The notes: generated by a model not told the origin, from the sequence alone. 64,000 bases of DNA from Alphaproteobacteria bacterium (GCA_030833925.1 JAURGE010000007.1:8048-72047), one strand, 5' to 3'. Positions 17,627 to 45,489 are shown, counted from the first letter of the stretch. Made by a program: numbers and translations.

Positions 17627-17662
17627 TGTGCGTCTCCTCGATAGAAGGGCTTGTGGCCGATA

Positions 17663-18031
17663 TTAATCTTTTAATGGCTCCGGTGGGATATCATGATAAT
17701 CTTCTGGCCGGCGACGCGACCAGAGGCCAAATTCCATTGGTCCAAGACGTAGCGCTCGCAGAATTTCAGTGACTGACGTTAGAGCTTCGGTTGGCGTTAC
17801 GATTTCATCACCTTGGCCTAAAACTGCTTTTGGACTGCGCATCTCTCCATCAGCTTTAGCAGCGTAAAGTTTTATAGCCGCAGTCATGATACGCGCTACT
17901 GCCACATCAGAAACACGCCCAGCATCACCTTCAGAGAGAAGTGCCTTTGCATCCTCCCATACTCTATTGGAAATAACCTCTAAATCATTAGCTGGGTCAT
18001 TTCCCTGTGAATTGGGTTCAGACGACGACAT
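17663..18031 (-). CDS. Small hypothetical helical protein between the Rieske and amidohydrolase genes
   Basis: ATG 18031 overlaps the end of the Rieske gene; amphipathic segments ARIMTAAIKLYAAKA and VTPTEALTSVTEILRAL. Confidence 0.75.
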   Translation of the reverse strand: MSSSEPNSQGNDPANDLEVISNRVWEDAKALLSEGDAGRVSDVAVARIMTAAIKLYAAKADGEMRSPKAVLGQGDEIVTPTEALTSVTEILRALRLGPMEFGLWSRRRPEDYHDIPPEPLKD

Positions 18032-18392
18032 AAACATCACCATCTTGAACCTGCGTTGAGTACCCTTCGAGATTCATAATTTTTACTGCTGACGCACCAG
18101 CAAATTCCCCTGTACGAATATCAAACTCAAGGCCATGCCATGGGCAGACAATGTGGGTCGTCGAGTCATCAAAATCACGCCCACGACTTTTTAAATCCGC
18201 GTCCAGCACTTCAAGTACTTTATTGTAGATGCGCCCCTGGCAGACTGGGCCACCTTGATGGGGGCATTTATTTTTCCAAGCAAAAAATTCATTGCCTATA
18301 CGAAAGACGCCGATCTGTTCCCCCTCAGTTTCAACCACGATCTTCCCACCGTCCTGAATATCAGCGACACGGCCCACACGAATTGTCGGCAT
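18018..18392 (-). CDS. Rieske [2Fe-2S] ferredoxin
   Basis: CPH-X37-CPWH; AGGA RBS. Confidence 0.92.
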   Translation of the reverse strand: MPTIRVGRVADIQDGGKIVVETEGEQIGVFRIGNEFFAWKNKCPHQGGPVCQGRIYNKVLEVLDADLKSRGRDFDDSTTHIVCPWHGLEFDIRTGEFAGASAVKIMNLEGYSTQVQDGDVYVVV

Positions 18393-32864: not shown

Positions 32865-33114
32865 TACTCCCTCAGCAAAACCTCAAGACCGGAACGTGCG
32901 TTGCGCCACCAAAAACCATGGTCAAATCTGAAACTTCTAAATTTCTAGAATTCCATACAGGCATATTCTTAAAAATTGTTACTTTCAACATCCTGTAACC
33001 CTTGTATCCAAGTGTTAGACGCAGACCATTATTAGATGTCGCCTCTCAGCTTCCGGCACAGTTAAGCAAGTCTGCGTCTTGCACAAACAAAGCCCTATGC
33101 CTAACACTTACGTA

Positions 33115-33447
33115 ATGAACGCCAATTCTGATCAAAAAATTCAAAAATTACTTGATCCTTCAGCAATGGAAGTTGTGATTGAACTTCAGAAGGCTGAGCT
33201 AGACCGACTACTTCTCGAGAATAGGCGTCTTCATGAAAGGATCGACCAGCTACTTCAATTGCAAGAGCGGGAACAGGTGTTGCGCCAACAACTACAGTCC
33301 CTGCTCGGCCATTCTCCTAAAACATCTCAAATTCCAAATAAGCTGATAAATGACAAAGCCCTTCAATCGGCCCAAACACGCTATGACAGATTGAAGGATA
33401 CCTTAGGCTTACTCCTAGTGGCTCTTGAAAAGCGGACTAGAACTTAA
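33115..33447 (+). CDS. Hypothetical coiled-coil protein (start uncertain, 33079-33115)
   Basis: Leu/Gln/Glu heptads ELDRLLLENRRLHERIDQLLQLQ; only ORF filling the gap. Confidence 0.6.
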   Translation: MNANSDQKIQKLLDPSAMEVVIELQKAELDRLLLENRRLHERIDQLLQLQEREQVLRQQLQSLLGHSPKTSQIPNKLINDKALQSAQTRYDRLKDTLGLLLVALEKRTRT

Positions 33448-33835
33448 CGATTACGTAATCACCTTCGGTAGACACGTCGACTGTCTCGGCATGCATTTCT
33501 TTGCCATCCCCAACTTCAATGTCATAAGAATGGGTTTTCCAACGTTTTGGATCAAACCGAGATTTTCCAGTCCTGAGATCAAACTCCCAGCCATGCCACG
33601 GGCATCTGACAATCTCACCACCGCGACTATAATTGTAGCATCCTGGCTTATTGGCTTCTACTAGCCCAATCACAACACCCTCCGAGAGCAGTCCCCCCAT
33701 ATGCGGACAGGCATCCCTTAGGCCAAAATATTCTCCATCAACATTAAAGATGGCAACTTTTCGACCTGCCACCTCAACGCTAACACGTGTGCCCGGAGGA
33801 ATATCCTCCACTTTCGCCGCAATATGCTTCGCCAT
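33437..33835 (-). CDS. Rieske [2Fe-2S] ferredoxin
   Basis: CPH-X32-CPWH. Confidence 0.92.
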   Translation of the reverse strand: MAKHIAAKVEDIPPGTRVSVEVAGRKVAIFNVDGEYFGLRDACPHMGGLLSEGVVIGLVEANKPGCYNYSRGGEIVRCPWHGWEFDLRTGKSRFDPKRWKTHSYDIEVGDGKEMHAETVDVSTEGDYVIVKF

Positions 33836-33839
33836 GCCC

Positions 33840-34949
33840 TCAGATGCCGTAAAGAGAACGTGCGTTACCTAAAAAGAAACCCTCTTTTTGCTCATCAGTT
33901 GCACGCGGCAAAGGTATACGTGTCGGGTCATCAAAATCCCAATGAGGATAATCAGTTGCAAATAATAATTTATCCCAACCAATCCACTCAAAGACGTCTT
34001 TTAGATGGCCACGACGATCAGGCTCTTCAAAAGGCTGTGTAGTGTACCAAATATGCTCAGCCATATATTCAGAGGGTGGTCGCTTCACGTGGGGTAGCTC
34101 TTGTCTATTCTGAGCCCAAATCCTGTCCAAGCGCCATGAAAGCGACGGAGCCCAGGCAAACCCAGCTTCAACAATGATCAATTTCAATTTCGGCCAACGC
34201 TCAAAGACACCTTCTAGCACCATTGATGAAACCAAGGATTGCGCCGATTGTGAATGCCCCACCATGTCTTCTGTATAATAACTGGGCCAACCACCTCCAG
34301 TGACCGGCGTACCGCCAAACCCGAAGGCATGCACAGCAAGGGGAAGATTTGCATCCTGACAGGCACTAAAAATTGGCCAATAGCGGCGGTTACCCATTGG
34401 CTCTGATGTCCTGATTAACATGAAAGCCTGAATGAAATTTGTATCGCCGGCGCGACGCTCTATCTCCTGGGCCGAAAGGAAACCATCTTCATATGGAAGA
34501 CACACAGAACCCTTTAAGCGAGCCTCTTTGGAAGTCCATTCTGCAATCTGCCAATCATTAATTGCTTTACAGTAAGCAGCAGCAAAGTCCGGGTTCTGAA
34601 GTCCCTGCCCTGACTTTAATGGATTCAAAACACCCAGCTGAACATTATATGGGTCTAGGTGATGCTTTCGCATAAATTCTAGGTCTGAACCAGGTTTCTC
34701 ACCGTTTGGTCCATACGCATCACGGCGCGCCGCATCAGGCTGCCCTTTTGGATAGGCTGGCCCCGCTTGATATGGCTGTCGTAGCAACATCCCATAGGTT
34801 TGGTAATGGTCTTGCCAGCGCTTTGAGAGATAGGGGAAAATCTCCCTCTCAACCGACTTAGGACTTGGATGAATGTCGCAGTCCGCTATTGCAAGTTTCT
34901 GATTTGCAGGCTTCGTGGCCGAAGCTTGGCCGATGGTTTCGACAGTCAC
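33840..34949 (-). CDS. Amidohydrolase_2-fold protein; candidate catalytic dimetal monooxygenase subunit
   Basis: DCDIH, AVHAFG, IVEAG, TDYPHWD; GTG start overlapping the upstream stop. Confidence 0.85.
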   Translation of the reverse strand: MTVETIGQASATKPANQKLAIADCDIHPSPKSVEREIFPYLSKRWQDHYQTYGMLLRQPYQAGPAYPKGQPDAARRDAYGPNGEKPGSDLEFMRKHHLDPYNVQLGVLNPLKSGQGLQNPDFAAAYCKAINDWQIAEWTSKEARLKGSVCLPYEDGFLSAQEIERRAGDTNFIQAFMLIRTSEPMGNRRYWPIFSACQDANLPLAVHAFGFGGTPVTGGGWPSYYTEDMVGHSQSAQSLVSSMVLEGVFERWPKLKLIIVEAGFAWAPSLSWRLDRIWAQNRQELPHVKRPPSEYMAEHIWYTTQPFEEPDRRGHLKDVFEWIGWDKLLFATDYPHWDFDDPTRIPLPRATDEQKEGFFLGNARSLYGI

Positions 34950-36016
34950 GTTACGGCCTCCTTTAATCTCGGATAAGTCGCAAGAGGATTATCATAGCAG
35001 ATTTTATTCTGAAGTGCTCTCGAGATTCCATCAGGAATCGCGTTATTTCCCTCGTAGTGCCAATGCGGATAGTCACTAGAGAATAGAAGCATTTCATCAC
35101 TGTCAAAATGCTCAATTAATTTTTCTAAGTCATCTGGCCTAGGTGGTGCATCATAAGGTTGTATTGTCAGTCGAACATGGTCCTTGGCAATTTCAAGCGG
35201 ATGCCTGTCCACCCAAGGGGTTTCCATCCTCAAACCACGCCAAAACTTACCAAGCCTCCAAAGGTGTGCAGGTAACCAAGCGAAGCCGGACTCTAAAAGA
35301 ACAACCTTTAATTCAGGGAATTCCGCAAAAACTCCCTCCGTGATCAAGCTAGTGAGTGTTGTTTGGAATGCCTGTGACTGTGCAGCTGAGTCTTCGGCAT
35401 AATAAGTAGGCCAACCAACTGACGTTACGGGATGCCTATAAGCACTGCCCGCATGAATACCTACAGGAAGGCCATTCCTCTCTGCAGCCCGATAAATTGG
35501 CCAGTAGCGGCGACGCCCTAAAGGCATTTCATCCATTACCAGCATTAAAACCTGAACAAACCGCTTATCGACAGCCATGCGATCTATCTCGGCTGCGGCA
35601 TAATCAGGATTTTGTGGAGAAACGACGATAGAAGCGCGAAGGCGCGGCTCTTTATCCAACCATTCTGTGGCAATCCAATCATTCACCGCCCGAGCAAATG
35701 CGTAAGCCATATCTTCGGTATACAAAAGTTGAACACCGTAAAGACAGTTGCAGATGGCAAATTTCGTACCAAAACCATCCAGCGCTTCTTTTCTAAGTCG
35801 CACTAAGTCTTGGCCAGCCTTACCCACTTCCGGCTTCCAGTCAGGACGGGCTGAAATAGGAGCGTTCTTAGGGTAGCTGATTGAATCTAATTCATGCACA
35901 CCTCGCTGGATCACCATATCACGCCAATGATCATCCAGATATGGCAGCAAAGCCTTGATACTAGGCACCGCTGGATGAAGATCACAGTCTATAGCGCCAA
36001 CCGGCGGGTAAGGCAT
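34946..36016 (-). CDS. Amidohydrolase_2-fold protein; candidate partner subunit
   Basis: DCDLH, GIHAG, LLESG, SDYPHWH. Confidence 0.85.
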   Translation of the reverse strand: MPYPPVGAIDCDLHPAVPSIKALLPYLDDHWRDMVIQRGVHELDSISYPKNAPISARPDWKPEVGKAGQDLVRLRKEALDGFGTKFAICNCLYGVQLLYTEDMAYAFARAVNDWIATEWLDKEPRLRASIVVSPQNPDYAAAEIDRMAVDKRFVQVLMLVMDEMPLGRRRYWPIYRAAERNGLPVGIHAGSAYRHPVTSVGWPTYYAEDSAAQSQAFQTTLTSLITEGVFAEFPELKVVLLESGFAWLPAHLWRLGKFWRGLRMETPWVDRHPLEIAKDHVRLTIQPYDAPPRPDDLEKLIEHFDSDEMLLFSSDYPHWHYEGNNAIPDGISRALQNKICYDNPLATYPRLKEAVT

Positions 36017-36019
36017 TTT

Positions 36020-36916
36020 TTAGTCCTCCTCAGGCCTGGACCGCCATTCCTCAGCGTCGAATGCTACATGCTCTCCAAAATGATGAATGGTCGTATCAGT
36101 AGGAAGGGTCATTTTCGAGAATTGTGTTTCCGCCGAAGATAGATGAACAACGCGAGACTGGGTCTGAAGCCATTTTGTTGCGGGTAGAAGTGTCGACTGC
36201 CGCTGAGTCACATCCATCAAAAAATAATGATGTGGAATCACTACTTTTGGTCGCAATCGGTTAATTATGCTGTCCACCATTTCAAATCCCATTACATGCT
36301 GGCTATCGTCAACAGGCAGCAAAGCAACGTCTACGTTACCAAGTTTTTCCCATACATAATCTGGGGGATTATGCCTGTTATCGCCCCAGTGAAGAAATCG
36401 AAGACCACCAGTTTCAATAACAACTATTACATTATCCCATGATCGTGGATTATCTGGCGGCTCGATATCAACACCGTTGAAACGTTTGTGAATTAGCTTG
36501 AAATCATATGTGGCGGCACTTGAGTCGGTAGCATGTTTATCGGCAATGCCATCAATCAAAACATCAAGAAAACTGTATTGGCCGATTGGCCTATCCAAAA
36601 GAACACTTGCGTCTAACCTATCGAGAGCATCGTGATCAAAGTGAGCATGGGTTGAAATTCCTATGTCAATCTTTGTGAGTGGCATATCCTTAAAATACCA
36701 GTCCCAAGTCCTACTTGGGTGGTTTCGCCAGGGATCAATCATTATTGATAGGCCCTGTGGCGTCGTCAGCCTAAACGCACTCGATCCGAAGTAAGCAATT
36801 TTTACAATGCCAAGATCTTCGGGTTTTCCAATACCTGACTCTTGTTTAAGCATCATTGAGTTGTGATTGCTCGCGCGAAGCCAAGATGTAAGACCCGAAT
36901 TAAGCTTACGCATCAT
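36020..36916 (-). CDS. Metallo-beta-lactamase-fold hydrolase
   Basis: IMIDPW, STHAHFDH, HWGD, VIPHHY. Confidence 0.88.
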   Translation of the reverse strand: MMRKLNSGLTSWLRASNHNSMMLKQESGIGKPEDLGIVKIAYFGSSAFRLTTPQGLSIMIDPWRNHPSRTWDWYFKDMPLTKIDIGISTHAHFDHDALDRLDASVLLDRPIGQYSFLDVLIDGIADKHATDSSAATYDFKLIHKRFNGVDIEPPDNPRSWDNVIVVIETGGLRFLHWGDNRHNPPDYVWEKLGNVDVALLPVDDSQHVMGFEMVDSIINRLRPKVVIPHHYFLMDVTQRQSTLLPATKWLQTQSRVVHLSSAETQFSKMTLPTDTTIHHFGEHVAFDAEEWRSRPEED

Positions 36917-37609
36917 TTAGTCCTCGAAAATCGCAACAGCTCGAATTGGACTAGCTGTTCCTCCCCTAATTTTTAGCGGAAAACCTGCAAAACGGAAGCG
37001 ACCCTTTCCAACCAACTCCTCTAAGTTCCATAGGCATTCAATGTGGGTGATGCCCCGCTCCCCACAAGCCAGATGGGCTTTATAATTTGCGGCGCCTTCA
37101 GGAGCAGGACTAATAGCTTCAACACCAAATTGACGTATTTTTTTATCCGCAAGCCAATGAACTGAAGCAACATGGAGGCCTGGAAAGTCGTGTTGATACC
37201 CAGGCTTCCCCCATAATCGAGCATTAACGCTCATGTGTATCAATACGGTATCACCCTCAAGGATCTCTTCCCCAGTGGCCTTAAGTGCTGCTTCCATCTC
37301 ATCAACCGTTATTTCATGGCGTAACGGGACATCGGAAAGATCTAGGCAAAGGCCGCCTGTATAAAAATTTTCTAATGGAATTTCGTCTATAGAGGCTGCC
37401 CCAGGTCGTGGGTCAAAATGAATTGGAGCGTCTATATGGGTTCCCGCATGGTCAGACATGGAAATCGACATTGCTTTAGAGGAAAATTTAATTCCACCCG
37501 CTTCCTTCACCTCTGAATGGTCGTTCCACGTTGTAATGATCACCGGAGGGTGGGCGGGATGCGCGGGGGTTCGATGATAGAGCTCTCTTGAAAGGTCAAT
37601 TATACGCAT
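36917..37609 (-). CDS. Cyclase-family (kynurenine formamidase-like) metal hydrolase
   Basis: IIDLS, HAGTHIDAP, FPLKIRGGTASPIRA; ATG 37609 after GGAG. Confidence 0.9.
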   Translation of the reverse strand: MRIIDLSRELYHRTPAHPAHPPVIITTWNDHSEVKEAGGIKFSSKAMSISMSDHAGTHIDAPIHFDPRPGAASIDEIPLENFYTGGLCLDLSDVPLRHEITVDEMEAALKATGEEILEGDTVLIHMSVNARLWGKPGYQHDFPGLHVASVHWLADKKIRQFGVEAISPAPEGAANYKAHLACGERGITHIECLWNLEELVGKGRFRFAGFPLKIRGGTASPIRAVAIFED

Positions 37610-37653
37610 CCGCATCTCCAGCAATAAAAGGAAGTCATTAAAACTATAGATCC

Positions 37654-37671
37654 CCGTCACAAAGATTACAT
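37654..37671 (+). promoter_or_regulatory. Putative Pho box upstream of phnN
   Basis: CCGTCAC-AAAG-ATTACAT with 11-bp period, plus in-phase AAGTCAT 22 bp upstream. Confidence 0.5.
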
Positions 37672-37721
37672 AATCTTGGGTGCAAATAGGGAATCGATAC
37701 AATAACGAAAAGTGACAATGG

Positions 37722-38303
37722 ATGACTGGCTTAGCGCCATTAATCTTGGTTGTTGGTCCAAGCGGAGCCGGCAAAGATACCCTTCTTGAGGGAGCCGCCC
37801 GCGAACTCGAACCAACAGGCAATTTCAGTTTTGCGAAACGAGTGATAACCCGCCCTGTTACTCCTGAGGGCGAACAACACATCGAGATGAGCACAGACGA
37901 GTTTAATCAAAAGGAAGCAGAGGGATATTTTCTTCTATCATGGCGCGCGCATGGCTATTGTTATGGTATCTTAGCCGAGCCGACAGAAACACTTAGGACA
38001 CGCGGGTGCGCTGTAGTGGCAAGTGTTTCTAGAACAGTAATAGATGACGCAAAGTCTCGCCATCAACCTGTCCATGTTATCGTCGTAACAGCACCCAAAA
38101 CTATTCTTGCAAGGCGTTTAGCCGATCGGGGCCGCGAACCCGAAGCTGATGTTTTAGCGAGACTTGAGCGCTCTGATGCTATCGACGTTTGCGGTCAAAA
38201 CGTAACGATTATTGAAAATATTTCTGATGTAAAAAGTGGCATCAGACAGATGATATCAGCATTAGAAGCTGCTTCATCCTTTGAATGGAAATCGACGGAT
38301 TAA
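37722..38303 (+). CDS. phnN: Ribose 1,5-bisphosphate phosphokinase
   Basis: VVGPSGAGKD, RVITR, WRAHGYCYG, RLADRGRE. Confidence 0.92.
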   Translation: MTGLAPLILVVGPSGAGKDTLLEGAARELEPTGNFSFAKRVITRPVTPEGEQHIEMSTDEFNQKEAEGYFLLSWRAHGYCYGILAEPTETLRTRGCAVVASVSRTVIDDAKSRHQPVHVIVVTAPKTILARRLADRGREPEADVLARLERSDAIDVCGQNVTIIENISDVKSGIRQMISALEAASSFEWKSTD

Positions 38304-38969
38304 CCGAAAGGGCTGATCTGATCCCACCTGCTCGTAAAGACTTACTCCAGAGACCTCCATTGGTCCTACCGCACCTGCAGCTTCGGCAGCACTTATTAAT
38401 CCGGCAGTTAACTTTGATCTAAGCCCGTCTGCTGCTATGGCGCTGGTTAGCGTCATATGAAAACGGAAATCTTCCATGACGTAAGGGTATCCCCAGCGCA
38501 GGAGATTTTCTTCCTGGCGTCCAGTCAATCCAGCCAAGCGACGCTTCGCTAGCTCTTTCTCTGTCTGTGGCGCTCTAAACGGCTCAAAAACCTCAACAGC
38601 ATTGGCTGCCAATTCAATCATCGATTTTGACTGAACGAGAAGCTTAAACGCAACAAAATTGCCTAACTCTGCCGGAGCAACCATTGGGCAGTTAAAGGAC
38701 TTTTGCGTTGATACAAAGTCCTCACACGTTCGGATTAAATCAGCGAATGAGCAGCCTTCAGACAGGCGGAAAGGAGGCTTTAAAGTTGCATGAAACCCAT
38801 ACAAACGAGGAGATGCTGTAAGTTCATCTAAATTTAAACCGCTTAATCCACTCAAAGATGGACGAATGAGAGGCTCACCTGTTTCGACATCCCTACCTAA
38901 CCACGCATTGCCAAATCTCCAGAGAGGACTTTCACGGTCAGGTGCAAAATAAATTGCATAACGTGTCAT
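38274..38969 (-). CDS. DUF1045 phosphonate-metabolism protein (2H phosphoesterase-like)
   Basis: RYAIYFAP, YGFHATLKPPF, WGYPYV, RFHMTLT. Confidence 0.9.
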   Translation of the reverse strand: MTRYAIYFAPDRESPLWRFGNAWLGRDVETGEPLIRPSLSGLSGLNLDELTASPRLYGFHATLKPPFRLSEGCSFADLIRTCEDFVSTQKSFNCPMVAPAELGNFVAFKLLVQSKSMIELAANAVEVFEPFRAPQTEKELAKRRLAGLTGRQEENLLRWGYPYVMEDFRFHMTLTSAIAADGLRSKLTAGLISAAEAAGAVGPMEVSGVSLYEQVGSDQPFRLIRRFPFKG

Positions 38970-40099
38970 GCTACTTTTACGCCATGCACCCAGGTGCCTC
39001 GGACCACTGCAGCATCATCGATTTTACGCACGCGCACGAGATCTGCTCTGAGACCCACAGCAATCTCTCCACGATCAAGATGGCCCAGCATTTCAGCAGG
39101 ATTTTTAGATACTGTCGCGACTGCTTTAGGCAAAGTCATGACACCAATTTCATTTAGTTTAAATGCCGCTTGAACCAAGCTAATGGGCGCATAGTCTGAA
39201 GAGAGTGCATCGAGAAGGTCAGCGTCCGCTAGATCAATTGCAGAGACATTACCCGAATGGGACCCCCCTCTAGCAACATTAGGTCCACCCATAACTGTCC
39301 GCATCCCAGCGGCTTTCGCAGCCTCTGCTGCTTCCATAGTGGTAGGAAATTCAGAAATTCGAATGTTGTCTTTTACAGCCTCAGAGACATGCTCTGGTGT
39401 AGTATCATCATGACTTGCTACAGGACCACGATCAGACCACAGATCAAGAATTTGTCTACGATTAACCTCGGAGTTTTTGCTTGCCGAGGCAATTCTTGAA
39501 GCGACATATGCCTCAAATTCCTTATCAGACATGTTGGCGTTTTTATATACTTTAAAGGATTTGAGATCGCGCCATTGACGCTGACCAGGCGTGTGATCCA
39601 TCAATGAAATTAGTCGGACGACTGGATCTTTGGCATATGGCTTGAACAGTTCCGGCGCTACATCATCGGCAATCTCACACCGAAGATGAACATAATGATC
39701 TGCTCTAAATAAATTCAATGTACTAGCTTCTGTAACAGCCTCCATAACGGTTTTGAGCAGCGCTCGGCGATAATTCCGATCCAAATACTCACCTACCGCG
39801 ATGGCGTCATAAACAGTGGTTACTCCAGCAGCTACCATCTGCGCATCATGAGCAAGGATAGCCGCTACGGGAGAAGGCCATACAACTCCTGGACGCGGGA
39901 CCATATGTTTTTCAACATTATCTGTGTGGATTTCAACAAATCCTGGCAGCAGGAAATCCTGACCAAGGTCATGAGCACCATTGGGAATGTTATCCCCTTC
40001 CCAGATCTCCGAGATACGACCTTCCGTTACTGCAATCCCTCCAAGGAATTCTGCTTCGGCATTAACAATTCGAGCGTTGGCCAATATTAAATCAGTCAT
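38966..40099 (-). CDS. phnM: Alpha-D-ribose 1-methylphosphonate 5-triphosphate diphosphatase
   Basis: EIHTDN, HLRCE, MDHTPGQRQ, SHDD, GGSHSGNV. Confidence 0.96.
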   Translation of the reverse strand: MTDLILANARIVNAEAEFLGGIAVTEGRISEIWEGDNIPNGAHDLGQDFLLPGFVEIHTDNVEKHMVPRPGVVWPSPVAAILAHDAQMVAAGVTTVYDAIAVGEYLDRNYRRALLKTVMEAVTEASTLNLFRADHYVHLRCEIADDVAPELFKPYAKDPVVRLISLMDHTPGQRQWRDLKSFKVYKNANMSDKEFEAYVASRIASASKNSEVNRRQILDLWSDRGPVASHDDTTPEHVSEAVKDNIRISEFPTTMEAAEAAKAAGMRTVMGGPNVARGGSHSGNVSAIDLADADLLDALSSDYAPISLVQAAFKLNEIGVMTLPKAVATVSKNPAEMLGHLDRGEIAVGLRADLVRVRKIDDAAVVRGTWVHGVKVA

Positions 40100-40806
40100 T
40101 AGGCTGCAGCCTTAAATTGAGAAACATCAAATAATCTATCAGCAAAGCGATCTCGGGCTGTCTCGTCGTGGCAAATTGCAATAATCGCAGCGCCTCGGGA
40201 CTTCGCCTCCAAAATTAGCTCAATGGCCGACTCTCTATTGCTGGCATCAAGCGAGGCCGTTGGTTCATCGAGTAATAAAATTGGATAAGGCCTTACAAGC
40301 CCCATAGCGATATTTACTCTTTGCTGTTCACCACCCGAAAACGTTGCGGGAGGCACATTCCATAAATGTTCTGGAAGATTAAGCCGCCTTAGAAGAGCAC
40401 TGGACACCTCAATGGCGATCTCAGAAGACATTCCCCCCGAGATGGCAACCTCAGAAATAAGATCGATGGAGGAAATTCTTGGAATAACCCGGAGAAATTG
40501 GCTTACATAACCAATAGTTTCCCGTCGTATTTCAAGCTTTGTTCTTGCTTCAACAGAAGCTATGTCGACCCATTCACCATGATGTTTGACAAGAATTTCT
40601 CCTGCTGATGGGAGATAATTTGCATATAAGCTGCGAAGGAGAGTCGACTTTCCAGACCCAGAACTACCAATCAAAGCAACACATTCGCCGGCTGAAACTT
40701 CAAACGATATATCGTTAAAGACAGGGAGCTGAACACCACCACGCCCGTGCAGGGTAAATGTCTTGCGTAGATTTCGTACCTGCAACATCAAAGATTTTTG
40801 GGTCAT
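40099..40806 (-). CDS. phnL: C-P lyase system ATPase PhnL
   Basis: KTFTLH, GSSGSGKS, VSQFLRVIPR, PPATFSGGEQQR. Confidence 0.95.
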   Translation of the reverse strand: MTQKSLMLQVRNLRKTFTLHGRGGVQLPVFNDISFEVSAGECVALIGSSGSGKSTLLRSLYANYLPSAGEILVKHHGEWVDIASVEARTKLEIRRETIGYVSQFLRVIPRISSIDLISEVAISGGMSSEIAIEVSSALLRRLNLPEHLWNVPPATFSGGEQQRVNIAMGLVRPYPILLLDEPTASLDASNRESAIELILEAKSRGAAIIAICHDETARDRFADRLFDVSQFKAAA

Positions 40807-41579
40807 GCCTGTAGCACCGATGAAACGAGGAGTTGGCTGTAAGGATGTTGAGGATCATCAAGAACCTGGTCGGTTAACCCGGTTTCCACTACACGTCCCT
40901 GCCGCATCACCATCAATCGATCGGAGAGCAAGCGAACTACAGCAAGATCATGAGTGACGACAACAGCGGCAACGCCAAGGTCTCGGACTAAGCCTCGAAG
41001 AAGATCAAGCAGTCTTGCCTGCACAGAAACATCCAGTCCACCCGTCGGCTCATCCATAAAAATCAGACGTGGTTTTGACACGAGAATTCGGGCAATTTGG
41101 ACACGCTGCTGCATCCCGCCAGAAAAAGTACGAGGGAGATCATCAACACGTGATGAAGGTATCTCTACCCGGGTCAACCAATCGAGGGCCTCATTTCGGA
41201 TATTTCCGTAATTTCTAGCGCCCACAGCCATTAAACGCTCACCTACATTTCCGCCGGCAGACACATTCATCCGAAGGCCATCGCGCGGATTTTGGCGGAC
41301 AATGCCCCAGTCTGTCCGCATAAGAAGCCTTCGCTCGGGCTCCGACAAACTGAAAACATCCCTGAGTCCCTGTCCACCAACATCGAACCTAACAATGCCA
41401 TTCGACGGTTCGAGCATCCCAGATAGACACCCCAGCAGCGTTGACTTTCCAGAGCCTGATTCCCCAACAACGCCAAGCACCTCTCCAGGGTAAAGGCGAA
41501 AGGAAACGTCTTCACAACCGAGCTGACCACCAGGGTAAGAGTGACCAACCGACTCAGCTTCAAGTAACGCTTTCATCAT
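40803..41579 (-). CDS. phnK: C-P lyase system ATPase PhnK
   Basis: GESGSGKS, QNPRDGLRM, FSGGMQQR, DEPTGGLDVSVQARLLD. Confidence 0.96.
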   Translation of the reverse strand: MMKALLEAESVGHSYPGGQLGCEDVSFRLYPGEVLGVVGESGSGKSTLLGCLSGMLEPSNGIVRFDVGGQGLRDVFSLSEPERRLLMRTDWGIVRQNPRDGLRMNVSAGGNVGERLMAVGARNYGNIRNEALDWLTRVEIPSSRVDDLPRTFSGGMQQRVQIARILVSKPRLIFMDEPTGGLDVSVQARLLDLLRGLVRDLGVAAVVVTHDLAVVRLLSDRLMVMRQGRVVETGLTDQVLDDPQHPYSQLLVSSVLQA

Positions 41580-42496
41580 GCCTCTCCCTCCGAGGACACA
41601 AATCCAATGCTGGCCGCATCAGAGGCACGATGCCCAGCATGACCTGCGGCTCTGCGCTCACGACAATGATCACTGTCTGAACAAACAAACATGTGATCAC
41701 CTTTGTCATCCAAAATCACTTCATCAAGAAATACCCCTTCTGCGCCGCATAGGGCGCACGGGTCTTCAAATCTCTGGATTTCAAAAGGATGATCATCGAA
41801 GTCGAGGCTTCGGACACGAGTATACGGCGGTATCGCATAAATGCGTTTCTCTCGCCCAGCTCCAAACAATTGCAATGCAGGCATCATCGCCATCTTTGGG
41901 TTATCAAACTTAGGTATTGGCGATGGAGACATTATATGGCGGGCATTAACCTCAACTGGATAATCGTAGGTCGTTATAATCTCACCATGCCTAGAAATAT
42001 CCTCATAAAGCTTCACATGCATAAGGCCGTATTCGGAATACGCATGTAACTTTCTTGTTTCAACTTCACGAGGCTCAAGCTTCCAAAGCGGTTCAGGCTG
42101 CGGAACCTGATAAACAAGAATTTGATTTTCGGTTAACTGCTTTTCGGGAATTCTATGTCGTGTCTGGATGAGGGTCGCTTTTTGCGTTTCCTCCGTAGTC
42201 TTAACCCCCGAAACCCTCTGAAAAAAGCGCCGGATAGATACTGCATTCGTTGTATCGTCTGCACCTTGGTCAATAACTTTGAGTGTGTCGTCTTTACCAA
42301 TGATGGACGCTGTAATCTGGATGCCACCCGTTCCCCAGCCATAGGCCATAGGCATCTCTCGCCCCCCAAACGGAACCTGATATCCAGGGACAGCAATGGC
42401 TTTTAGAAGCGTCCTCCGGATCATTCGCTTCGTTTGCTCATCGAGATACGCAAAATTGTAGGTACCATCGACCGAATGAAACGCCTGAGAATTCAT
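41576..42496 (-). CDS. phnJ: C-P lyase radical SAM subunit
   Basis: YNFAYLDEQTKRMIRR, YGWGTGG, CALC...VCSDSDHC. Confidence 0.98.
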   Translation of the reverse strand: MNSQAFHSVDGTYNFAYLDEQTKRMIRRTLLKAIAVPGYQVPFGGREMPMAYGWGTGGIQITASIIGKDDTLKVIDQGADDTTNAVSIRRFFQRVSGVKTTEETQKATLIQTRHRIPEKQLTENQILVYQVPQPEPLWKLEPREVETRKLHAYSEYGLMHVKLYEDISRHGEIITTYDYPVEVNARHIMSPSPIPKFDNPKMAMMPALQLFGAGREKRIYAIPPYTRVRSLDFDDHPFEIQRFEDPCALCGAEGVFLDEVILDDKGDHMFVCSDSDHCRERRAAGHAGHRASDAASIGFVSSEGEA

Positions 42497-43587
42497 TCCG
42501 CAGCCTCCTGTCCCGGGGTTTTCAAAGCGTCAGCGCGCAGGCCGCGCAACATTGAAAGCTCAGACTGGAAATCAACGTAATGTGGTAATTTCAAATGGCT
42601 CACGAAGCCCGCAGCTTCGACGTTGTCGCTGTGCGCAAGCACAAATTCTTCGTCTTGCGGAGGATGGTCTCGGTCTTCACCCAATTCACTGGCTTTAAGC
42701 GCACGATCGACCAAGGCCATTGCCATAGTCTTTCGTTCTGACTGTCCAAAGGCGAGGCCATAACCCCGAGTGAACATGGGCTCAATACCCTTCGCACCTT
42801 GGAATTGGTTTATCATCTGGCATTCAGTTACTTCGATGGTTCCGATCGAAATTGGGAACCCTAGCTCAGGTGGGGTAAAAACCACTTCGACAAAGCCCAT
42901 CCTAATTTCCCCGACAAAAGGATGGTTACGACCATAACCTCGCTGCGTCGCATAACCGAGTGCGAGAACAAAACCCTCATCGCCTCGGAATAAATTTTGA
43001 AGTCTCTGGTCCCGATCCGCAGGAAACGACATTGGCTGTCTGCCTAAATCAAATGGCTCCGCCTCTGGTTCAGATCTCGTCTCCGCTTGCATAAGACCCT
43101 GAGCACCTAAAATATCAGTTACACGCGGCATAGTTGGATCGGTGGCTGTGGCCTCTGGCGCTACCCGCTCAGCTTGGTCTGATTTAGCAAGACCAAAATC
43201 CAAAAGCCGATGCGTGTAATCATATGTGGGACCCAATATCTGGCCACCTGGCACATCTTTAAAAGCTGCAGAAATACGCCGGCGGATAATCATCTTGGAC
43301 GTGTCTATTGGCTGGGTGGCACCAAATCGCGGCAGTGTTGTGCGAAAGGCCCTAAGAAGAAAAATCGCTTCAACCATATCCCCTTGGGCCTGTTTTATGG
43401 CTAGCGCCGCTAAGTCTGGATCGTAGAGCGATCCTTCTGTCATAACGCGATCGACAGCCCGTCCAAGTTGATTTCGCACCTGGTCGATAGCAAGCTCAGG
43501 AACGGAAGTATCTCCTCTCCTTTCCTCAGCAATCAACCCGTGCGTGGCTTCAATGGCGGCCTCTCCGCCTTTCGTTGCGACGTACAT
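42493..43587 (-). CDS. phnI: C-P lyase complex subunit PhnI
   Basis: MYVATKGGEAAI, PGGQILGPTYDY, HLKLPHYVDFQ. Confidence 0.97.
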   Translation of the reverse strand: MYVATKGGEAAIEATHGLIAEERRGDTSVPELAIDQVRNQLGRAVDRVMTEGSLYDPDLAALAIKQAQGDMVEAIFLLRAFRTTLPRFGATQPIDTSKMIIRRRISAAFKDVPGGQILGPTYDYTHRLLDFGLAKSDQAERVAPEATATDPTMPRVTDILGAQGLMQAETRSEPEAEPFDLGRQPMSFPADRDQRLQNLFRGDEGFVLALGYATQRGYGRNHPFVGEIRMGFVEVVFTPPELGFPISIGTIEVTECQMINQFQGAKGIEPMFTRGYGLAFGQSERKTMAMALVDRALKASELGEDRDHPPQDEEFVLAHSDNVEAAGFVSHLKLPHYVDFQSELSMLRGLRADALKTPGQEAAE

Positions 43588-43591
43588 AGTG

Positions 43592-44179
43592 TCAGACCTC
43601 CAAAGTGTGAGCAGACACGCTACGTGGCAGAGCTAATGCTAAGTTGCCTGTAAAAAGGCAGACATCAAACCCAAGTGGGTAGAGTGCATTATTTGTTGCC
43701 CAGGCCGCCCAAAAGCTTGCAACTTCAAGCATTGGCTCAATTCTACGTTTTCCCTTGATCCCCGGACCGGATATTTCGATCACGGGACCTTTTGAAAGGC
43801 TCTGGCAGGCAACTAATAACGTTGCTGATCTATCTGGATATTTATCGGTGCCAATTTTGAATTGCTGGAAGGGAGCCGACTCAGGATCGAGAATAATGGC
43901 AAAATCAGCTTCATTTGGCTGAGAGGTTATTCGACAACCCGCATGGAAGTTTAAGTATCGTATGGTTTCTGGGTCTTCTTTATCCAGCCAAATGGATACA
44001 TCGTTGTCTAAAAGTGTAAGGCATGCAGCAGCTAGCGAAGATGGCCAGCCGGTGGGCGCCTCTTGAGGGCCCTGGACTTCTACTATGCGACCAGGGAATG
44101 AGAATGCCTCCATGATTGAACGAAAAGCAGACTGCGCACCAAATACAGGCTGTGAAAAGCCGGTGGCTATATGTGTCAT
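43592..44179 (-). CDS. phnH: C-P lyase complex subunit PhnH
   Basis: AQSAFRSIM, LTLLD, GTDKYPDRSAT, LPRS. Confidence 0.94.
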   Translation of the reverse strand: MTHIATGFSQPVFGAQSAFRSIMEAFSFPGRIVEVQGPQEAPTGWPSSLAAACLTLLDNDVSIWLDKEDPETIRYLNFHAGCRITSQPNEADFAIILDPESAPFQQFKIGTDKYPDRSATLLVACQSLSKGPVIEISGPGIKGKRRIEPMLEVASFWAAWATNNALYPLGFDVCLFTGNLALALPRSVSAHTLEV

Positions 44180-44182
44180 GAC

Positions 44183-44656
44183 TTAACTTTCCGCCCTAAC
44201 CATAGTGAAGAAATCGACCTTTGTAGCACCAGCCTTCCGTCGAGATTTTAGGTGTCTCTCTTTTTCTTCACTCCGAAGAGGCTCGATAACTTTTGCCCAA
44301 ATCTCGTCGCGCCGCGACGTTTGCAGGAGGGCATCACAAATAGCTGCGGCTTTTGCCTTCTCAATGTCTCTCCCTTGGACGTAAGCATGCCCAACAACAT
44401 CTGGGAGCGATTCCATCGTGATTGCGCACCGGGTGACACTCATCTCACCCACAGAAAACATTTGCCCTGTTCCACCAGCTCTACCGCGTGTCATTACAGC
44501 GCCTACTTCAGGCTGTCTTAGCCAACGAAAATCTGGTGGGTCACTTATGGTATCAAAACACTTAGCTAAGGACTGAGCATGTGCCCTGGCCAGCACGCCC
44601 ATCCATTCAGCCCGGTCTGCATTAGGATTTTTCTCAAGGTCGGAATTGGACGACAT
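44183..44656 (-). CDS. phnG: C-P lyase complex subunit PhnG
   Basis: RAEWMGVLA, RGRAGGTG, GEMSVTRC, ATKVDFFTMVR. Confidence 0.95.
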   Translation of the reverse strand: MSSNSDLEKNPNADRAEWMGVLARAHAQSLAKCFDTISDPPDFRWLRQPEVGAVMTRGRAGGTGQMFSVGEMSVTRCAITMESLPDVVGHAYVQGRDIEKAKAAAICDALLQTSRRDEIWAKVIEPLRSEEKERHLKSRRKAGATKVDFFTMVRAES

Positions 44657-44672
44657 CGAACACCCTCATATT

Positions 44673-44689
44673 TGTCTAGACATCTAGAT
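44673..44689. promoter_or_regulatory. Putative PhnF (HutC-type GntR) operator
   Basis: Palindrome TGTCTAGACA overlapping a second palindrome ATCTAGAT, between phnG and phnF. Confidence 0.65.
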
Positions 44690-44734
44690 ATGTTGAAGGT
44701 AACTACAAGTTGATCCTGTGTAAACCGGAAAAAG

Positions 44735-44752
44735 AAGACAGTTATATGACAA
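44735..44752 (-). promoter_or_regulatory. Putative Pho box driving phnG-M
   Basis: Minus strand reads TTGTCAT-ATAA-CTGTCTT, close to the CTGTCAT-N4-CTGTCAY consensus. Confidence 0.65.
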
Positions 44753-45489
44753 TTGATGAAACCACTCCGGAAAACCTTTCTCGCGGAAATGGGGAGGCCC
44801 TTTGGAAGCAGATCGCGTTGGCACTTGAGAATGATATAAGATGTGGAACATTCTCAGGGGGTGGCCATAGATTACCTACAGAACAGACCCTAACGACACG
44901 CTTTGCAGTCAATCGCCATACCGTCCGGCGTGCAATCCAAGCTCTGGCTGAAAAAGGACTAGTTCGGACAGAGCAAGGCCGAGGCGTATTCGTAAACGCT
45001 GAAATGGTGGAATATCCCTTGGGCCGTCGTGTCCGATTTAGCGAAAGTCTCACTGCACAACAAAAAGCACCAAAGGGGCAAATTCTGCATGTCGCTCGCG
45101 TTCAGGCGCCGATAGATGCAAGAGAGGCCTTGGAACTAGAAACCCGCGATAAAGCGTGGCGAGTCGATCGCCTAGGTTTCAGCGAAGACCGTCCAATAAC
45201 TCTTTCTTCGCACTATTTTAGCTATCATCGCTTCCCAAAGCTGGCTGAGGCGTTTCACGAAAATGACTCGATTACAAAAGCTCTCAAACTCTCTGGAGTG
45301 ACCGACTATGAACGGAGAGAAACACGAATTCATGCACGCCCTGCCACAGCCGAAGAAACACGCATTTTAGAATTACCCAGGGGACGGCCAGTTCTCGTTA
45401 CTGAGGGAATTAATATTGATAGCAATGCATTACCCGTTGAATTTAGTATCGCGAGATTTGCAGCCGATAGAGTTCAACTAGTCACATAA
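44746..45489 (+). CDS. phnF: Phosphonate metabolism regulator (GntR HTH plus UTRA)
   Basis: LWKQIA, LPTE, RFAVNRHTVRRA, RVRFSE; divergent from phnG. Confidence 0.93.
   Translation: MTIDETTPENLSRGNGEALWKQIALALENDIRCGTFSGGGHRLPTEQTLTTRFAVNRHTVRRAIQALAEKGLVRTEQGRGVFVNAEMVEYPLGRRVRFSESLTAQQKAPKGQILHVARVQAPIDAREALELETRDKAWRVDRLGFSEDRPITLSSHYFSYHRFPKLAEAFHENDSITKALKLSGVTDYERRETRIHARPATAEETRILELPRGRPVLVTEGINIDSNALPVEFSIARFAADRVQLVT

What the first reader, a model, noticed from the sequence alone, without database searches (positions are those of the whole stretch)
33437..37609. Operon B: cyclase, MBL hydrolase, two amidohydrolase-fold subunits and a Rieske protein, a candidate undescribed oxidative pathway
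Seen: five co-directional genes with gaps of 0, 3, -4 and 4 nt, with GAGG-type RBSs at the ends of upstream genes. Established: the tandem amidohydrolase pair plus Rieske layout is that of the 2-aminoisobutyrate C-H hydroxylase AibH1H2G. Inference: a heteromeric dimetal monooxygenase works with two metal hydrolases to hydroxylate and then deacylate or ring-open an unknown substrate. I know of no described pathway with this gene set. No reductase, transporter or regulator is included.
Basis: partly seen in the sequence, partly recalled or inferred. Interest (0 to 1): 0.85.

Follow-up and report, generated by a model that had tools for sequence, protein, structure and literature searches.

The report
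Orphan AibH1H2-type oxygenase with two hydrolases
This is a real five-gene operon whose core is an uncharacterised relative of a known two-subunit metal oxygenase with its own small iron-sulfur electron carrier, while the two hydrolase genes joined to it are linked only in this one genus, so it is an orphan member of a known enzyme family rather than a clearly new pathway.

Summary
Five minus-strand genes (33437-37609) lie 0, 3, -4 and 4 nt apart with GAGG-type ribosome sites. They encode a cyclase-family hydrolase, an MBL hydrolase, two PF04909 proteins and a Rieske ferredoxin.

The two PF04909 proteins are clear relatives of AibH1 and AibH2, their best matches among solved structures (E 4.7e-87 and 8.5e-80). 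The H2-like protein carries every signature published for amidohydrolase-related dinuclear oxygenases (AROs). The H1-like protein has the AibH1-type single-metal ligand set. A complex model passes its controls, but a like complex is already solved.

The pathway reading is weaker:
- The H1-H2-Rieske trio is conserved across the family, in 20 of 20 loci read.
- The cyclase and MBL genes adjoin it only in this genus (6 of 6 loci read, against 0 of 14 elsewhere), always beside the phn C-P lyase locus.
- MBL relatives stand without the other four genes in 77 of 80 loci.
- Relatives of the cyclase, the MBL and the trio each occur in genomes where a match to the others was not found.

Verdict: an orphan AibH1H2G-type monooxygenase, probably Mn/Fe, substrate unknown. 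It is a new member of a known kind in a genus-specific operon. Interest is moderate.

The parts
36917..37609 (-). Cyclase-family (arylformamidase / isatin hydrolase-like) metal hydrolase, 230 aa, first gene of the operon
   Evidence: PF04199 at 114.5 bits. It is far below the arylformamidase equivalog cut-off (TIGR03035, 63.6 against 223 bits). Best solved relatives are isatin hydrolases and kynurenine formamidases, E 4e-14 to 1e-5. The H-x-G-T-H-x-D-x-P-x-H stretch is present (the motif itself is recalled, not from a call). The start at 37609 is supported by the orthologue starts.
36020..36916 (-). MBL-fold metal hydrolase (Lactamase_B_3 / UPF0173-like), 298 aa
   Evidence: PF13483 at 84.7 bits. 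It is below the NF001911 cut-off (47.5 against 144 bits). Solved relatives are TM0207, Igni_1254 and UPF0173 proteins, E 4.5e-11 to 9e-3. H-A-H-F-D-H is present, and H90, H92, D94 and H95 are invariant in 12 of 12 aligned relatives.
34946..36016 (-). AibH1-like non-catalytic subunit (PF04909), single-metal ligand set, 356 aa
   Evidence: Best solved match is AibH1 (6m1w_A), E 4.7e-87. D12, H14, H188, E242, D315 and H318 align with the AibH1 ligands and its conserved His. Position 320 is H here and Q or H in all 16 of 16 orthologues, never an acid, as in AibH1.
33840..34949 (-). AibH2-like catalytic subunit (ARO), two-metal ligand set, 369 aa, GTG start overlapping the H1-like stop
   Evidence: Best solved match is AibH2 (6m1w_B), E 8.5e-80. 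D25-I-H27, H207, E261 and D333-Y-P-H336-W-D338 are invariant in 16 of 16 orthologues. These are the ARO motifs of PMC13154177 section 7.
33437..33835 (-). Small soluble Rieske [2Fe-2S] ferredoxin (AibG-like), 132 aa
   Evidence: PF00355 at 59.9 bits and PF22543 (soluble Rieske ferredoxin) at 28.7 bits. C43-P-H45 and C78-P-W-H81 are present. It follows the H2-like gene in 20 of 20 related loci.
37610..37721 (.). 112-nt divergent intergenic region between the operon and phnN; presumed promoter region (inferred)
   Evidence: Sequence read. No Pho-box-like site with up to 3 mismatches. No inverted repeat was reported by the repeat finder. By eye there is an AAGATTA-ca-TAATCTT palindrome, which is not conserved in the other genomes of the genus.

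Best explanation
The core of the locus is a three-protein monooxygenase of the AibH1H2G type and belongs to the amidohydrolase-related dinuclear oxygenases (AROs).

- The H2-like protein holds a two-metal site. Its sequence signatures suggest a Mn/Fe site. It activates O2 to hydroxylate a C-H bond of a small polar metabolite.
- The H1-like protein is a non-catalytic partner with one metal. It forms the heteromer with the H2-like protein.
- The Rieske protein passes electrons to the H2-like protein from a reductase encoded elsewhere.
- In this genus alone, the trio is co-transcribed with a cyclase-family hydrolase and an MBL-fold hydrolase, beside the phn C-P lyase locus. The two hydrolases may act on the same compound before or after hydroxylation, for example as an amide/formamide hydrolase and an ester/lactone hydrolase. 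That coupling is a genus-level inference.

Shown: homology, ligand sets, gene order and the distribution across genomes. Inferred: oxygenase activity, the metal, the electron path, the heteromer in the cell and any role of the hydrolases. The substrate is unknown.
For: 1. Homology. AibH1 and AibH2 are the best solved matches, E 4.7e-87 and 8.5e-80. They score above the single-subunit AROs 8sm6-8sm9 and far above the PF04909 decarboxylases, which reach E 1e-13 or weaker.
2. The ARO-defining motifs D-x-H and D-x-P-H-x-[D/E] (PMC13154177 section 7), plus H207 and E261, are present and invariant in 16 of 16 orthologues.
3. The H1-like protein keeps the AibH1 ligands. It lacks the acid that AibH1 also lacks (PMC7782822 discussion).
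4. The residue between D and H is Ile or Val and the residue after the motif His is Trp in 16 of 16. These are two of the three criteria for Mn-dependent AROs (PMC13154177 sections 11 and 13).
5. The Rieske gene directly follows in 20 of 20 loci. The same paper reports that Rieske neighbours go with the low-potential, Mn-dependent class (passage).
6. Complex model. Score 0.87, best of 3 controls 0.00. The mark was reached by 58 of 80 solved complexes and 2 of 110 mismatched pairs. The runs agree in at least 96% of contacts and the partner's pLDDT is at least 88. A like complex (AibH1H2) is solved, so this shows likeness, not binding.
7. The trio is conserved. Strong H2-like matches (E 1e-150 or better) occur in 21 of 24 other genomes of the family, plus one fragment at a contig end, and in 2 of 16 genomes of other families.
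8. All five genes are present and tightly packed in the 6 of 6 genus loci fetched. The same holds in 3 of 3 genus records found, two of which repeat genomes. DNA G+C in these loci runs from 46 to 67%.
9. Contigs of four RNA-library runs, 96-99% alike, lie on the Rieske, H2-like and H1-like genes and cross the Rieske/H2 and H2/H1 junctions. This is compatible with transcription but is not proof: these are contigs, and DNA can be present in such libraries.
Against: - No activity, metal content or substrate is known for this protein or for any close relative.
- Identity to AibH1 and AibH2 is only about 43% and 41%. These are my hand counts of identical letters in the alignments printed.
- No reductase lies in the operon. 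None resembling the genome's own Fer2-FAD-NAD protein lies in any of the 20 related loci.
- The third criterion for the Mn class (the gamma2 residue) could not be placed.

Against any coupling with the hydrolases:
- 0 of 14 trio loci outside the genus have a cyclase or MBL relative beside them.
- 77 of 80 MBL-relative loci lack the other four genes within 8 kb.
- In two complete genomes of sister genera, the trio and the relatives of the MBL and the cyclase lie megabases apart.
- 4 of 8 genomes of one sister genus have the trio but no cyclase relative at E 1e-60.
- The three genomes of other families that have a cyclase relative gave no match to the H2-like or MBL query at E 1e-30.
Confidence: 0.72

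Rival explanations
1. All five proteins form one dedicated, undescribed catabolic pathway. The heteromeric oxygenase hydroxylates a compound, and the two hydrolases then deacylate it or open its ring, or prepare it beforehand.
For: - Gaps of 0, 3, -4 and 4 nt with internal ribosome sites point to one transcript.
- The same five genes, equally packed, are kept in every genus locus read: 6 of 6 and 3 of 3. Protein identities run from 62 to 91% and G+C from 46 to 67%.
- Both hydrolases keep their metal motifs.
- In the 7 genomes of the second sister genus for which I have both searches, the trio and the cyclase relative are present together in 6 and absent together in 1.
Against: - Linkage is confined to one genus.
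- The parts lie far apart in complete genomes of sister genera.
- Each part occurs without the others elsewhere.
- The neighbours of MBL relatives vary. The commonest neighbour family is present in 16 of 80 loci, and neighbours include TRAP transporter parts, cupins, luciferase-like oxygenases and dehydrogenases.
- The neighbours of cyclase relatives also differ from place to place.
- Related genomes share ancestry, so the co-occurrence inside the family is weak evidence.
Confidence: 0.3
2. The enzyme is a true orthologue of the 2-aminoisobutyrate hydroxylase and acts on 2-aminoisobutyrate itself.
For: AibH1 and AibH2 are the closest solved relatives. The subunit types and the gene order are the same.
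Against: - Identity is only about 41-43% (hand count).
- None of the other aib genes listed in PMC7782822 (reductase, permease, two dehydrogenases, decarboxylase) adjoins the trio here.
- None turned up among the neighbours scanned in related loci.
- The authors of PMC10401708 describe the neighbourhoods of the 555 AibH2-like proteins as distinct from the aib cluster.
Confidence: 0.07
3. The operon serves phosphonate use. It oxidatively trims or unmasks a substituted (amino)phosphonate so that the neighbouring C-P lyase can take it.
For: - The operon lies next to phnN, the DUF1045 gene and phnM in every genus locus read. It shares a 112-nt divergent region with phnN.
- Another ARO, SfbO, has its metal-site EPR signal strongly changed by 2-aminoethylphosphonate (PMC10811679, text read).
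Against: - The trio is not beside phn genes in any of the 14 loci outside the genus.
- A Pho-box-like site with 2 mismatches lies upstream of phnG at 44735-44752. None with up to 3 mismatches lies in the phnN/operon intergenic region. The window's total of 8 matches is not above chance (5.2 expected).
- The palindrome of the phnF-phnG region is not repeated there.
Confidence: 0.08
4. The two PF04909 proteins are ordinary non-redox amidohydrolase-2 enzymes (hydrolase, hydratase or decarboxylase), as automatic annotation would name them.
For: The Pfam family is shared. Decarboxylases of the family appear as weak matches.
Against: - Matches to the decarboxylases are at E 1e-13 or weaker, against 1e-80 for AibH2.
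- According to PMC13154177 section 7, the D-x-H and D-x-P-H-x-[D/E] motifs are found in no characterised hydrolase or decarboxylase of the fold.
- The adjacent Rieske ferredoxin points to redox chemistry.
Confidence: 0.03

Closest known systems
AibH1H2-AibG-AibF, the 2-aminoisobutyrate hydroxylase of Rhodococcus wratislaviensis (PDB 6M1W, 8FUL-8FUO)
   Same: - Two adjacent PF04909 genes followed by a small Rieske gene, in the same order.
- The H2-type subunit has all six ligands of the two-metal site plus the second-sphere Asp.
- The H1-type subunit has the single-metal ligand set and no acid after the motif His.
- These are the best solved matches, and the heteromer model passes its controls.
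   Different: - About 41-43% identity (hand count).
- The Rieske protein has 132 aa against 169 aa.
- No AibF-type reductase, permease or downstream aib genes lie nearby.
- The residue after the motif His is Trp here and Phe in AibH2.
- Different host (an uncultured alphaproteobacterium) and different neighbours.
SfbO and the other single-subunit AROs found through their Rieske neighbours (PDB 8SM6-8SM9; PMC10811679)
   Same: ARO motifs, a Rieske neighbour, orphan substrate, and hydrophobic/aromatic signature residues of the Mn-preferring class. Matches at E 2e-69 to 1e-44 for the H2-like protein.
   Different: The paper treats them as single proteins and names no H1-type partner in the text I read. 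They score below AibH2. SfbO has a sulfate-binding pocket whose residues I could not map here.
PtmU3 and DitZ (diiron AROs of natural-product or diterpenoid pathways)
   Same: Same fold and the same two-metal motif.
   Different: Distant, E 1.5e-16 and 2.5e-9. They belong to the high-potential diiron class, with a hydrophilic residue between D and H and no Rieske partner (PMC13154177).
Kynurenine formamidase / isatin hydrolase (cyclase family PF04199)
   Same: Same fold family, and the metal-binding His/Asp stretch is present.
   Different: Only distant similarity, E 4e-14 or weaker. It is far below the arylformamidase equivalog cut-off, so no substrate can be inferred.
UPF0173 / TM0207 / Igni_1254-type MBL hydrolases (PF13483); one source labels relatives 'UlaG-like'
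   Same: Same Pfam family, and the H-x-H-x-D-H motif is present.
   Different: Distant, E 4.5e-11 or weaker. It has a conserved N-terminal extension of about 35 residues. No characterised close relative turned up.

Membership tests
Amidohydrolase-related dinuclear oxygenases (ARO), H2-like protein | PF04909 (amidohydrolase_2) TIM-barrel fold | tested here: met
   PF04909 at 172.4 bits against a cut-off of 26.4.
Amidohydrolase-related dinuclear oxygenases (ARO), H2-like protein | N-terminal D-x-H motif (PMC13154177 section 7) | tested here: met
   D25-I-H27 aligns with D25 and H27 of AibH2. Invariant in 16 of 16 orthologues.
Amidohydrolase-related dinuclear oxygenases (ARO), H2-like protein | C-terminal D-x-P-H-x-[D/E] motif preceded by about 200 residues or more | tested here: met
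   D333-Y-P-H336-W-D338. Invariant in 16 of 16.
Amidohydrolase-related dinuclear oxygenases (ARO), H2-like protein | Remaining ligands of metal site 1 (His and Glu equivalent to H211 and E265 of AibH2) | tested here: met
   H207 and E261 align with them. Invariant in 16 of 16.
Amidohydrolase-related dinuclear oxygenases (ARO), H2-like protein | Redox-active two-metal cofactor and O2-dependent oxidation of a substrate | not testable with these tools
   Needs protein, metal analysis and assays.
Mn-dependent (low-potential) ARO class of PMC13154177 Table 1 | gamma1 (the x of D-x-H) hydrophobic | tested here: met
   Ile here; Ile in 12 and Val in 4 of 16.
Mn-dependent (low-potential) ARO class of PMC13154177 Table 1 | gamma4 (the residue after the motif His) aromatic | tested here: met
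   Trp in 16 of 16.
Mn-dependent (low-potential) ARO class of PMC13154177 Table 1 | gamma2 (end of the second beta strand) hydrophilic | not tested
   The position is defined on structures and in supplementary figures that I could not see. I made no structural alignment.
AibH1H2G-type heteromeric hydroxylase | A second PF04909 subunit with the single-metal ligand set (D, H, H, E, D) and no acid two residues after the motif His | tested here: met
   D12, H14, H188, E242 and D315; H318-W-H320. Position 320 is Q in 11 and H in 5 of 16.
AibH1H2G-type heteromeric hydroxylase | The two subunits form a heterocomplex | tested here: inconclusive
   Model only. Score 0.87 against a best control of 0.00. 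The mark was reached by 58 of 80 solved complexes and 2 of 110 mismatched pairs. At least 96% of contacts agree between runs and the partner's pLDDT is at least 88. A like complex is solved, so the pass may come from likeness.
AibH1H2G-type heteromeric hydroxylase | Adjacent small Rieske ferredoxin, gene order H1-H2-Rieske | tested here: met
   the order in the aib cluster is. The same order holds in 20 of 20 related loci.
AibH1H2G-type heteromeric hydroxylase | Dedicated flavin/[2Fe-2S] reductase (AibF) in the cluster | tested here: not met
   None among the five genes or their flanks. One Fer2-FAD_binding_6-NAD_binding_1 protein lies on another contig. Nothing similar to it lies in the 20 related loci.
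AibH1H2G-type heteromeric hydroxylase | Substrate 2-aminoisobutyrate, with the downstream aib genes alongside | tested here: not met
   The gene context was tested and contains no aib-type dehydrogenases, decarboxylase or permease next to the trio. The substrate itself cannot be tested here.
Arylformamidase (TIGR03035 equivalog), cyclase-family protein | Score above the curated cut-off | tested here: not met
   63.6 bits against a cut-off of 223. It is a member of Pfam PF04199 only.
UPF0173 metal-dependent hydrolase (NF001911 equivalog), MBL protein | Score above the curated cut-off | tested here: not met
   47.5 bits against a cut-off of 144. It is a member of Pfam PF13483.

The most novel reading that the evidence does not exclude
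In this genus of uncultured aquatic alphaproteobacteria, three separately inherited genes or gene sets have been welded into one operon next to the C-P lyase locus: an AibH1H2G-type Mn/Fe hydroxylase, a formamidase-like hydrolase and an MBL hydrolase. Together they would carry out an undescribed 'hydroxylate, then hydrolyse' route for an abundant small metabolite of natural waters, possibly an N-substituted or phosphonate-bearing one. This would be the second heteromeric ARO with a physiological role, and the first tied to hydrolases.
Probability: 0.22. Interest if true: 0.65.

Novelty: new member of a known kind. Interest (0 to 1): 0.4.

Why it matters
Among the papers I could search, AibH1H2 is the only heteromeric ARO with an assigned substrate, and I saw no other C-H hydroxylase shown to need a Mn/Fe site. 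Thousands of relatives next to Rieske genes remain orphans.

This locus offers a compact second lineage of the two-subunit type. It is conserved in most genomes sampled from its family, and contigs from seawater RNA libraries lie on it. It is therefore a reasonable target for substrate discovery, and for asking what the H1-type subunit is for.

The negative result also matters. The attractive five-gene 'pathway' is a genus-level arrangement and not a conserved module, so the two hydrolases should not be used uncritically to guess the substrate.

Tried and rejected
- RNA cover. In one search no contig of the four RNA-library runs lay on 36028-37647, the MBL and cyclase genes. Contigs did lie on the trio and on phnN. 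I draw no conclusion about a separate transcript.
- Pho box. The pattern search gave 8 matches against 5.2 expected, which is not above chance. Only the site upstream of phnG is well placed, and none lies before the operon.
- Shared operator. The palindrome in the phnF-phnG region is not repeated in the phnN/operon region. The by-eye palindrome there is not conserved in the genus. A loosely shared TGTGAC/TATGAC word seen was not pursued.
- Promoter and terminator scan: at chance level.
- My first simple ORF caller picked opposite-strand shadow ORFs in G+C-rich loci. I replaced it with a third-codon-position G+C filter. That filter failed for the two loci of 57-59% G+C, so for those I used the maps. 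The neighbour maps are therefore approximate. Only neighbours confirmed by Pfam are cited.
- Histidinol dehydrogenase. I first took the gene next to the trio in one sister genus for housekeeping hisD. One search shows two copies per genome, and it is the lower-scoring paralogue that adjoins the trio there. In this genome that paralogue lies on another contig. It is an interesting lead on the product (an alcohol oxidised further?) but says nothing direct about this window.
- The zinc-type alcohol dehydrogenase coupled after the Rieske gene in some genomes of the genus has its counterpart here about 30 kb away, just outside the window. It is not part of this operon.
- The protein atlas returned only generic names.
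- Literature. No paper held all four terms 'cyclase family protein', 'MBL fold metallo-hydrolase', 'amidohydrolase' and 'Rieske'. The searches for AibH1H2, AibH1/AibH2, 'amidohydrolase-related dinuclear' and PF04909+Rieske+monooxygenase returned 3 to 7 listed papers each, with the same four core ARO papers at the top. The genome-neighbourhood tables of the ARO papers may list this gene set, and the gamma2 position is defined there.

Full report
**What is there**

Searches list five co-directional ORFs on the minus strand:
- 36917-37609 (the ORF is open up to 37894, but see below)
- 36020-36916
- 34946-36016
- 33840-34949
- 33437-33835

The gaps are 0, 3, -4 and 4 nt, and GAGG-type ribosome sites lie inside the ends of the upstream genes. 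The first gene starts at the ATG at 37609. That ATG lies 6 nt after a GGAG, and the orthologues start at the same residue.

Pfam assigns the five proteins to Cyclase (PF04199), Lactamase_B_3 (PF13483), Amidohydro_2 (PF04909, twice) and Rieske (PF00355), all far above cut-off. No NCBIfam equivalog is reached.

**Surroundings**

- On the promoter side, 112 nt away and divergent, lies phnN. A DUF1045 'phosphonate metabolism' gene and phnM follow it. By my reading of the translations, phnL to phnG and a GntR-type regulator gene complete the locus.
- On the other side, a 122-codon ORF converges on the Rieske gene and overlaps its end. Two ORFs follow, which I read as a membrane-fusion and RND efflux pair (no family scan was run on them).
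- The five genes include no reductase, transporter or regulator.
- The window is part of a 2.78-Mb, 181-contig assembly rated 91% complete. Related records are titled as Rhodospirillales or Alphaproteobacteria metagenome-assembled genomes.
- Near-identical DNA is held by runs labelled estuary, freshwater and seawater metagenomes. There are 14 rows holding at least half of the sampled words, from 6 studies, and 2 of those rows may be the source of this DNA.

**The oxygenase core**

Against all solved structures, the 356-aa protein matches AibH1 best (6m1w_A, E 4.7e-87) and the 369-aa protein matches AibH2 best (6m1w_B, E 8.5e-80). Both score above the single-subunit AROs 8sm6-8sm9. The PF04909 decarboxylases reach E 1e-13 or weaker. 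My hand count of identical letters in the printed alignments gives about 43% and 41% identity.

Hibi et al. (PMC7782822, passages read) give three relevant facts:
- The gene order is aibH1-aibH2-aibG-aibF.
- The six AibH2 ligands are D25, H27, H211, E265, D337 and H340, with a second-sphere D342.
- The AibH1 ligands are D24, H26, H201, E255 and D328. AibH1 keeps the motif His but lacks the acid that follows it.

In the window's H2-like protein the aligned residues are D25, H27, H207, E261, D333, H336 and D338. In the H1-like protein they are D12, H14, H188, E242, D315 and H318, with His at 320 in place of the acid.

Across 16 orthologous pairs from the family and two other families, all of these residues are invariant. 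The H1 position is Q (11) or H (5) and never an acid.

Liu et al. 2026 (PMC13154177, sections 7, 11 and 13 read) define AROs by D-x-H and D-x-P-H-x-[D/E]. They predict Mn dependence from three residues: hydrophobic gamma1, hydrophilic gamma2 and aromatic gamma4. Here gamma1 is Ile (Ile or Val in 16 of 16) and gamma4 is Trp (16 of 16). I could not place gamma2.

The Rieske protein has the canonical C-x-H ... C-x-x-H ligands. It follows the H2-like gene in 20 of 20 loci.

A complex model of the two subunits, built with my alignments, gave a score of 0.87 against a best control of 0.00. The mark was reached by 58 of 80 solved complexes and 2 of 110 mismatched pairs. The runs agree in at least 96% of contacts and the partner's pLDDT is at least 88. 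Because AibH1H2 is solved, this pass shows likeness and does not show binding.

**Is the five-gene set a pathway? Seen from the trio**

- Strong H2-like matches (E 1e-150 or better) occur in 21 of the 24 other genomes sampled from the family. One more is a fragment at a contig end, and two genomes (99% and 100% complete) have only distant paralogues. Outside the family, 2 of 16 sampled genomes have strong matches.
- I fetched 20 loci from 17 of these genomes. All 20 have H1-like, H2-like and Rieske genes in that order; two have about 1 kb inserted between H1 and H2.
- A cyclase and an MBL relative adjoin the trio in 6 of the 20. All six are from the window's own genus, and all six lie beside phnN and the DUF1045 gene. 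The count is 0 of 14 outside the genus.
- Elsewhere the trio sits with quite different genes:
  - a histidinol-dehydrogenase paralogue, an amidase and a 2OG oxygenase in one sister genus;
  - a luciferase-like oxygenase, a CMD-family protein, an AraC/Ada regulator, an Amidohydro_1 protein and an amide/urea-type binding protein in the other sister genus;
  - an alpha/beta hydrolase, an SDR and a TauD-type oxygenase in other families.

**Seen from the MBL gene**

- It has more than 1,300 relatives in the large protein collection.
- 80 loci encoding relatives 56-83% identical were fetched. Only 3 of the 80, all from the genus, hold the cyclase, H1, H2 and Rieske genes within 8 kb. The other 77 hold none of them.
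- Their neighbours vary. The commonest neighbour family occurs in 16 of 80 loci, and neighbours include TRAP transporter parts, cupins, luciferase-like oxygenases, dehydrogenases and others.

**Seen from the cyclase gene**

- Close relatives (E 1e-40 or better) were found in only 3 of 250 other genomes sampled across the class.
- In those three genomes the neighbours are unrelated. No H2-like or MBL match at E 1e-30 was found in them; one of them is only 87% complete.

**Inside the family**

- The cyclase relative was found in 9 of 9, 16 of 17 and 4 of 10 genomes of the three genera.
- Four genomes of the last genus (93-100% complete) have the trio but no cyclase relative at that threshold.
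- In two complete single-contig genomes of the sister genera, the trio and the relatives of the MBL and the cyclase are all present but lie 0.7 to 3.7 Mb apart.

So the conserved unit is the trio. The five-gene operon was assembled in this genus. There it is kept in every locus I read: 6 of 6 and 3 of 3, two of the latter being the same genomes. This holds despite protein identities of 62-91% and G+C from 46 to 67%. Tight packing argues for co-transcription and leaves functional coupling possible. The wider distribution gives it no support.

**Electron supply and expression**

The genome holds one Fer2-FAD_binding_6-NAD_binding_1 protein of 349 aa on another contig. Nothing similar lies near the trio in the 20 loci. 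The published surveys likewise stress Rieske neighbours and do not report reductases as common neighbours.

Contigs of four seawater or aquatic RNA-library runs, 96-99% alike, lie on the Rieske, H2-like and H1-like genes and on phnN. They cross the Rieske/H2 and H2/H1 junctions. This is compatible with transcription in nature but is not proof.

**Link to phosphonates**

Adjacency to the C-P lyase locus is as genus-specific as the hydrolase linkage. A Pho-box-like site lies upstream of phnG, and none lies in front of the operon. One published ARO binds 2-aminoethylphosphonate at its metal site. I therefore keep this link as a low-probability rival.

**Comparison with what is known, and verdict**

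AibH2-like oxygenases next to Rieske genes are a described, mostly orphan class: 555 proteins with 90% Rieske co-occurrence in PMC10401708 section 7, 3,307 candidates in PMC10811679 and about 17,000 motif-bearing proteins in PMC13154177. This locus meets every sequence criterion that I could test for that class and for the two-subunit AibH1H2 type. It does not meet the criteria that tie AibH1H2 to 2-aminoisobutyrate, namely the reductase and the downstream genes.

It is a new, uncharacterised member of a known kind, sitting in a genus-specific operon with two hydrolases of unknown substrate. Interest is moderate (0.4).

Noticed in passing
window 16400-18392, minus strand: A second ARO-like system in the same window. 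A 408-aa PF04909 protein carries D-A-H and D-W-P-H-F-D motifs. It is preceded by a 126-aa ORF with no Pfam match and a 124-aa Rieske protein with C-P-H ... C-P-W-H. It is about 30% identical to the H2-like protein and has no H1-type partner.
   Followed up: partly
window 37722-44656 and 44710-45489: A C-P lyase locus. I read phnG to phnL from the translations. phnM and a DUF1045 gene were scanned; the latter scores 240.8 bits on TIGR03223, just below its cut-off of 248.95. A GntR-type regulator gene is divergent. phnN lies on the opposite strand and overlaps the end of the DUF1045 gene.
   Followed up: partly
window 44672-44696 and 44735-44752: In the phnF-phnG divergent region there is a TGTCTAGACA / ATCTAGAT palindrome pair. 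From memory it resembles operators of GntR/HutC-type regulators. There is also a Pho-box-like direct repeat with 2 mismatches about 80-95 nt upstream of phnG.
   Followed up: partly
L022, L024, L025, L032 (sister genus); G019:C1:3843235-3844455: In one sister genus a paralogue of histidinol dehydrogenase lies directly upstream of the H1-like gene on the same strand, 66-72 nt away in two complete genomes. It scores about 441 bits, and each genome also has a copy of about 530 bits elsewhere. An amidase and a 2OG-Fe(II) oxygenase lie divergent to it. This hints that the trio's product there is an alcohol that is oxidised further, as in the aib pathway.
   Followed up: partly
L015 7705-8718, L016 11301-12293; own genome C159:72063-73049: In some genomes of the genus, a zinc-type (MDR) alcohol dehydrogenase gene overlaps or closely follows the end of the Rieske gene, followed by hisG and hisD. 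Its 76%-identical counterpart in this genome lies just beyond the window's end.
   Followed up: partly
loci L013-L016, L029, L030: Genomes placed in one genus by the tool differ in local G+C from 46% to 67% while keeping the same gene order. That is an unusually wide span for one genus.
   Followed up: no
window 33079-33447, plus strand: A 122-codon ORF with no family match converges on the Rieske gene and overlaps its last 11 nt. It is conserved at about 68% identity only in the two closest genomes. RNA-library contigs also lie on it.
   Followed up: no
L029 (G005) and L030 (G004): In these two assemblies several genes of the region, and the H2-like or cyclase gene, appear split between frames. 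The cause may be assembly errors or real decay; I did not examine it.
   Followed up: no
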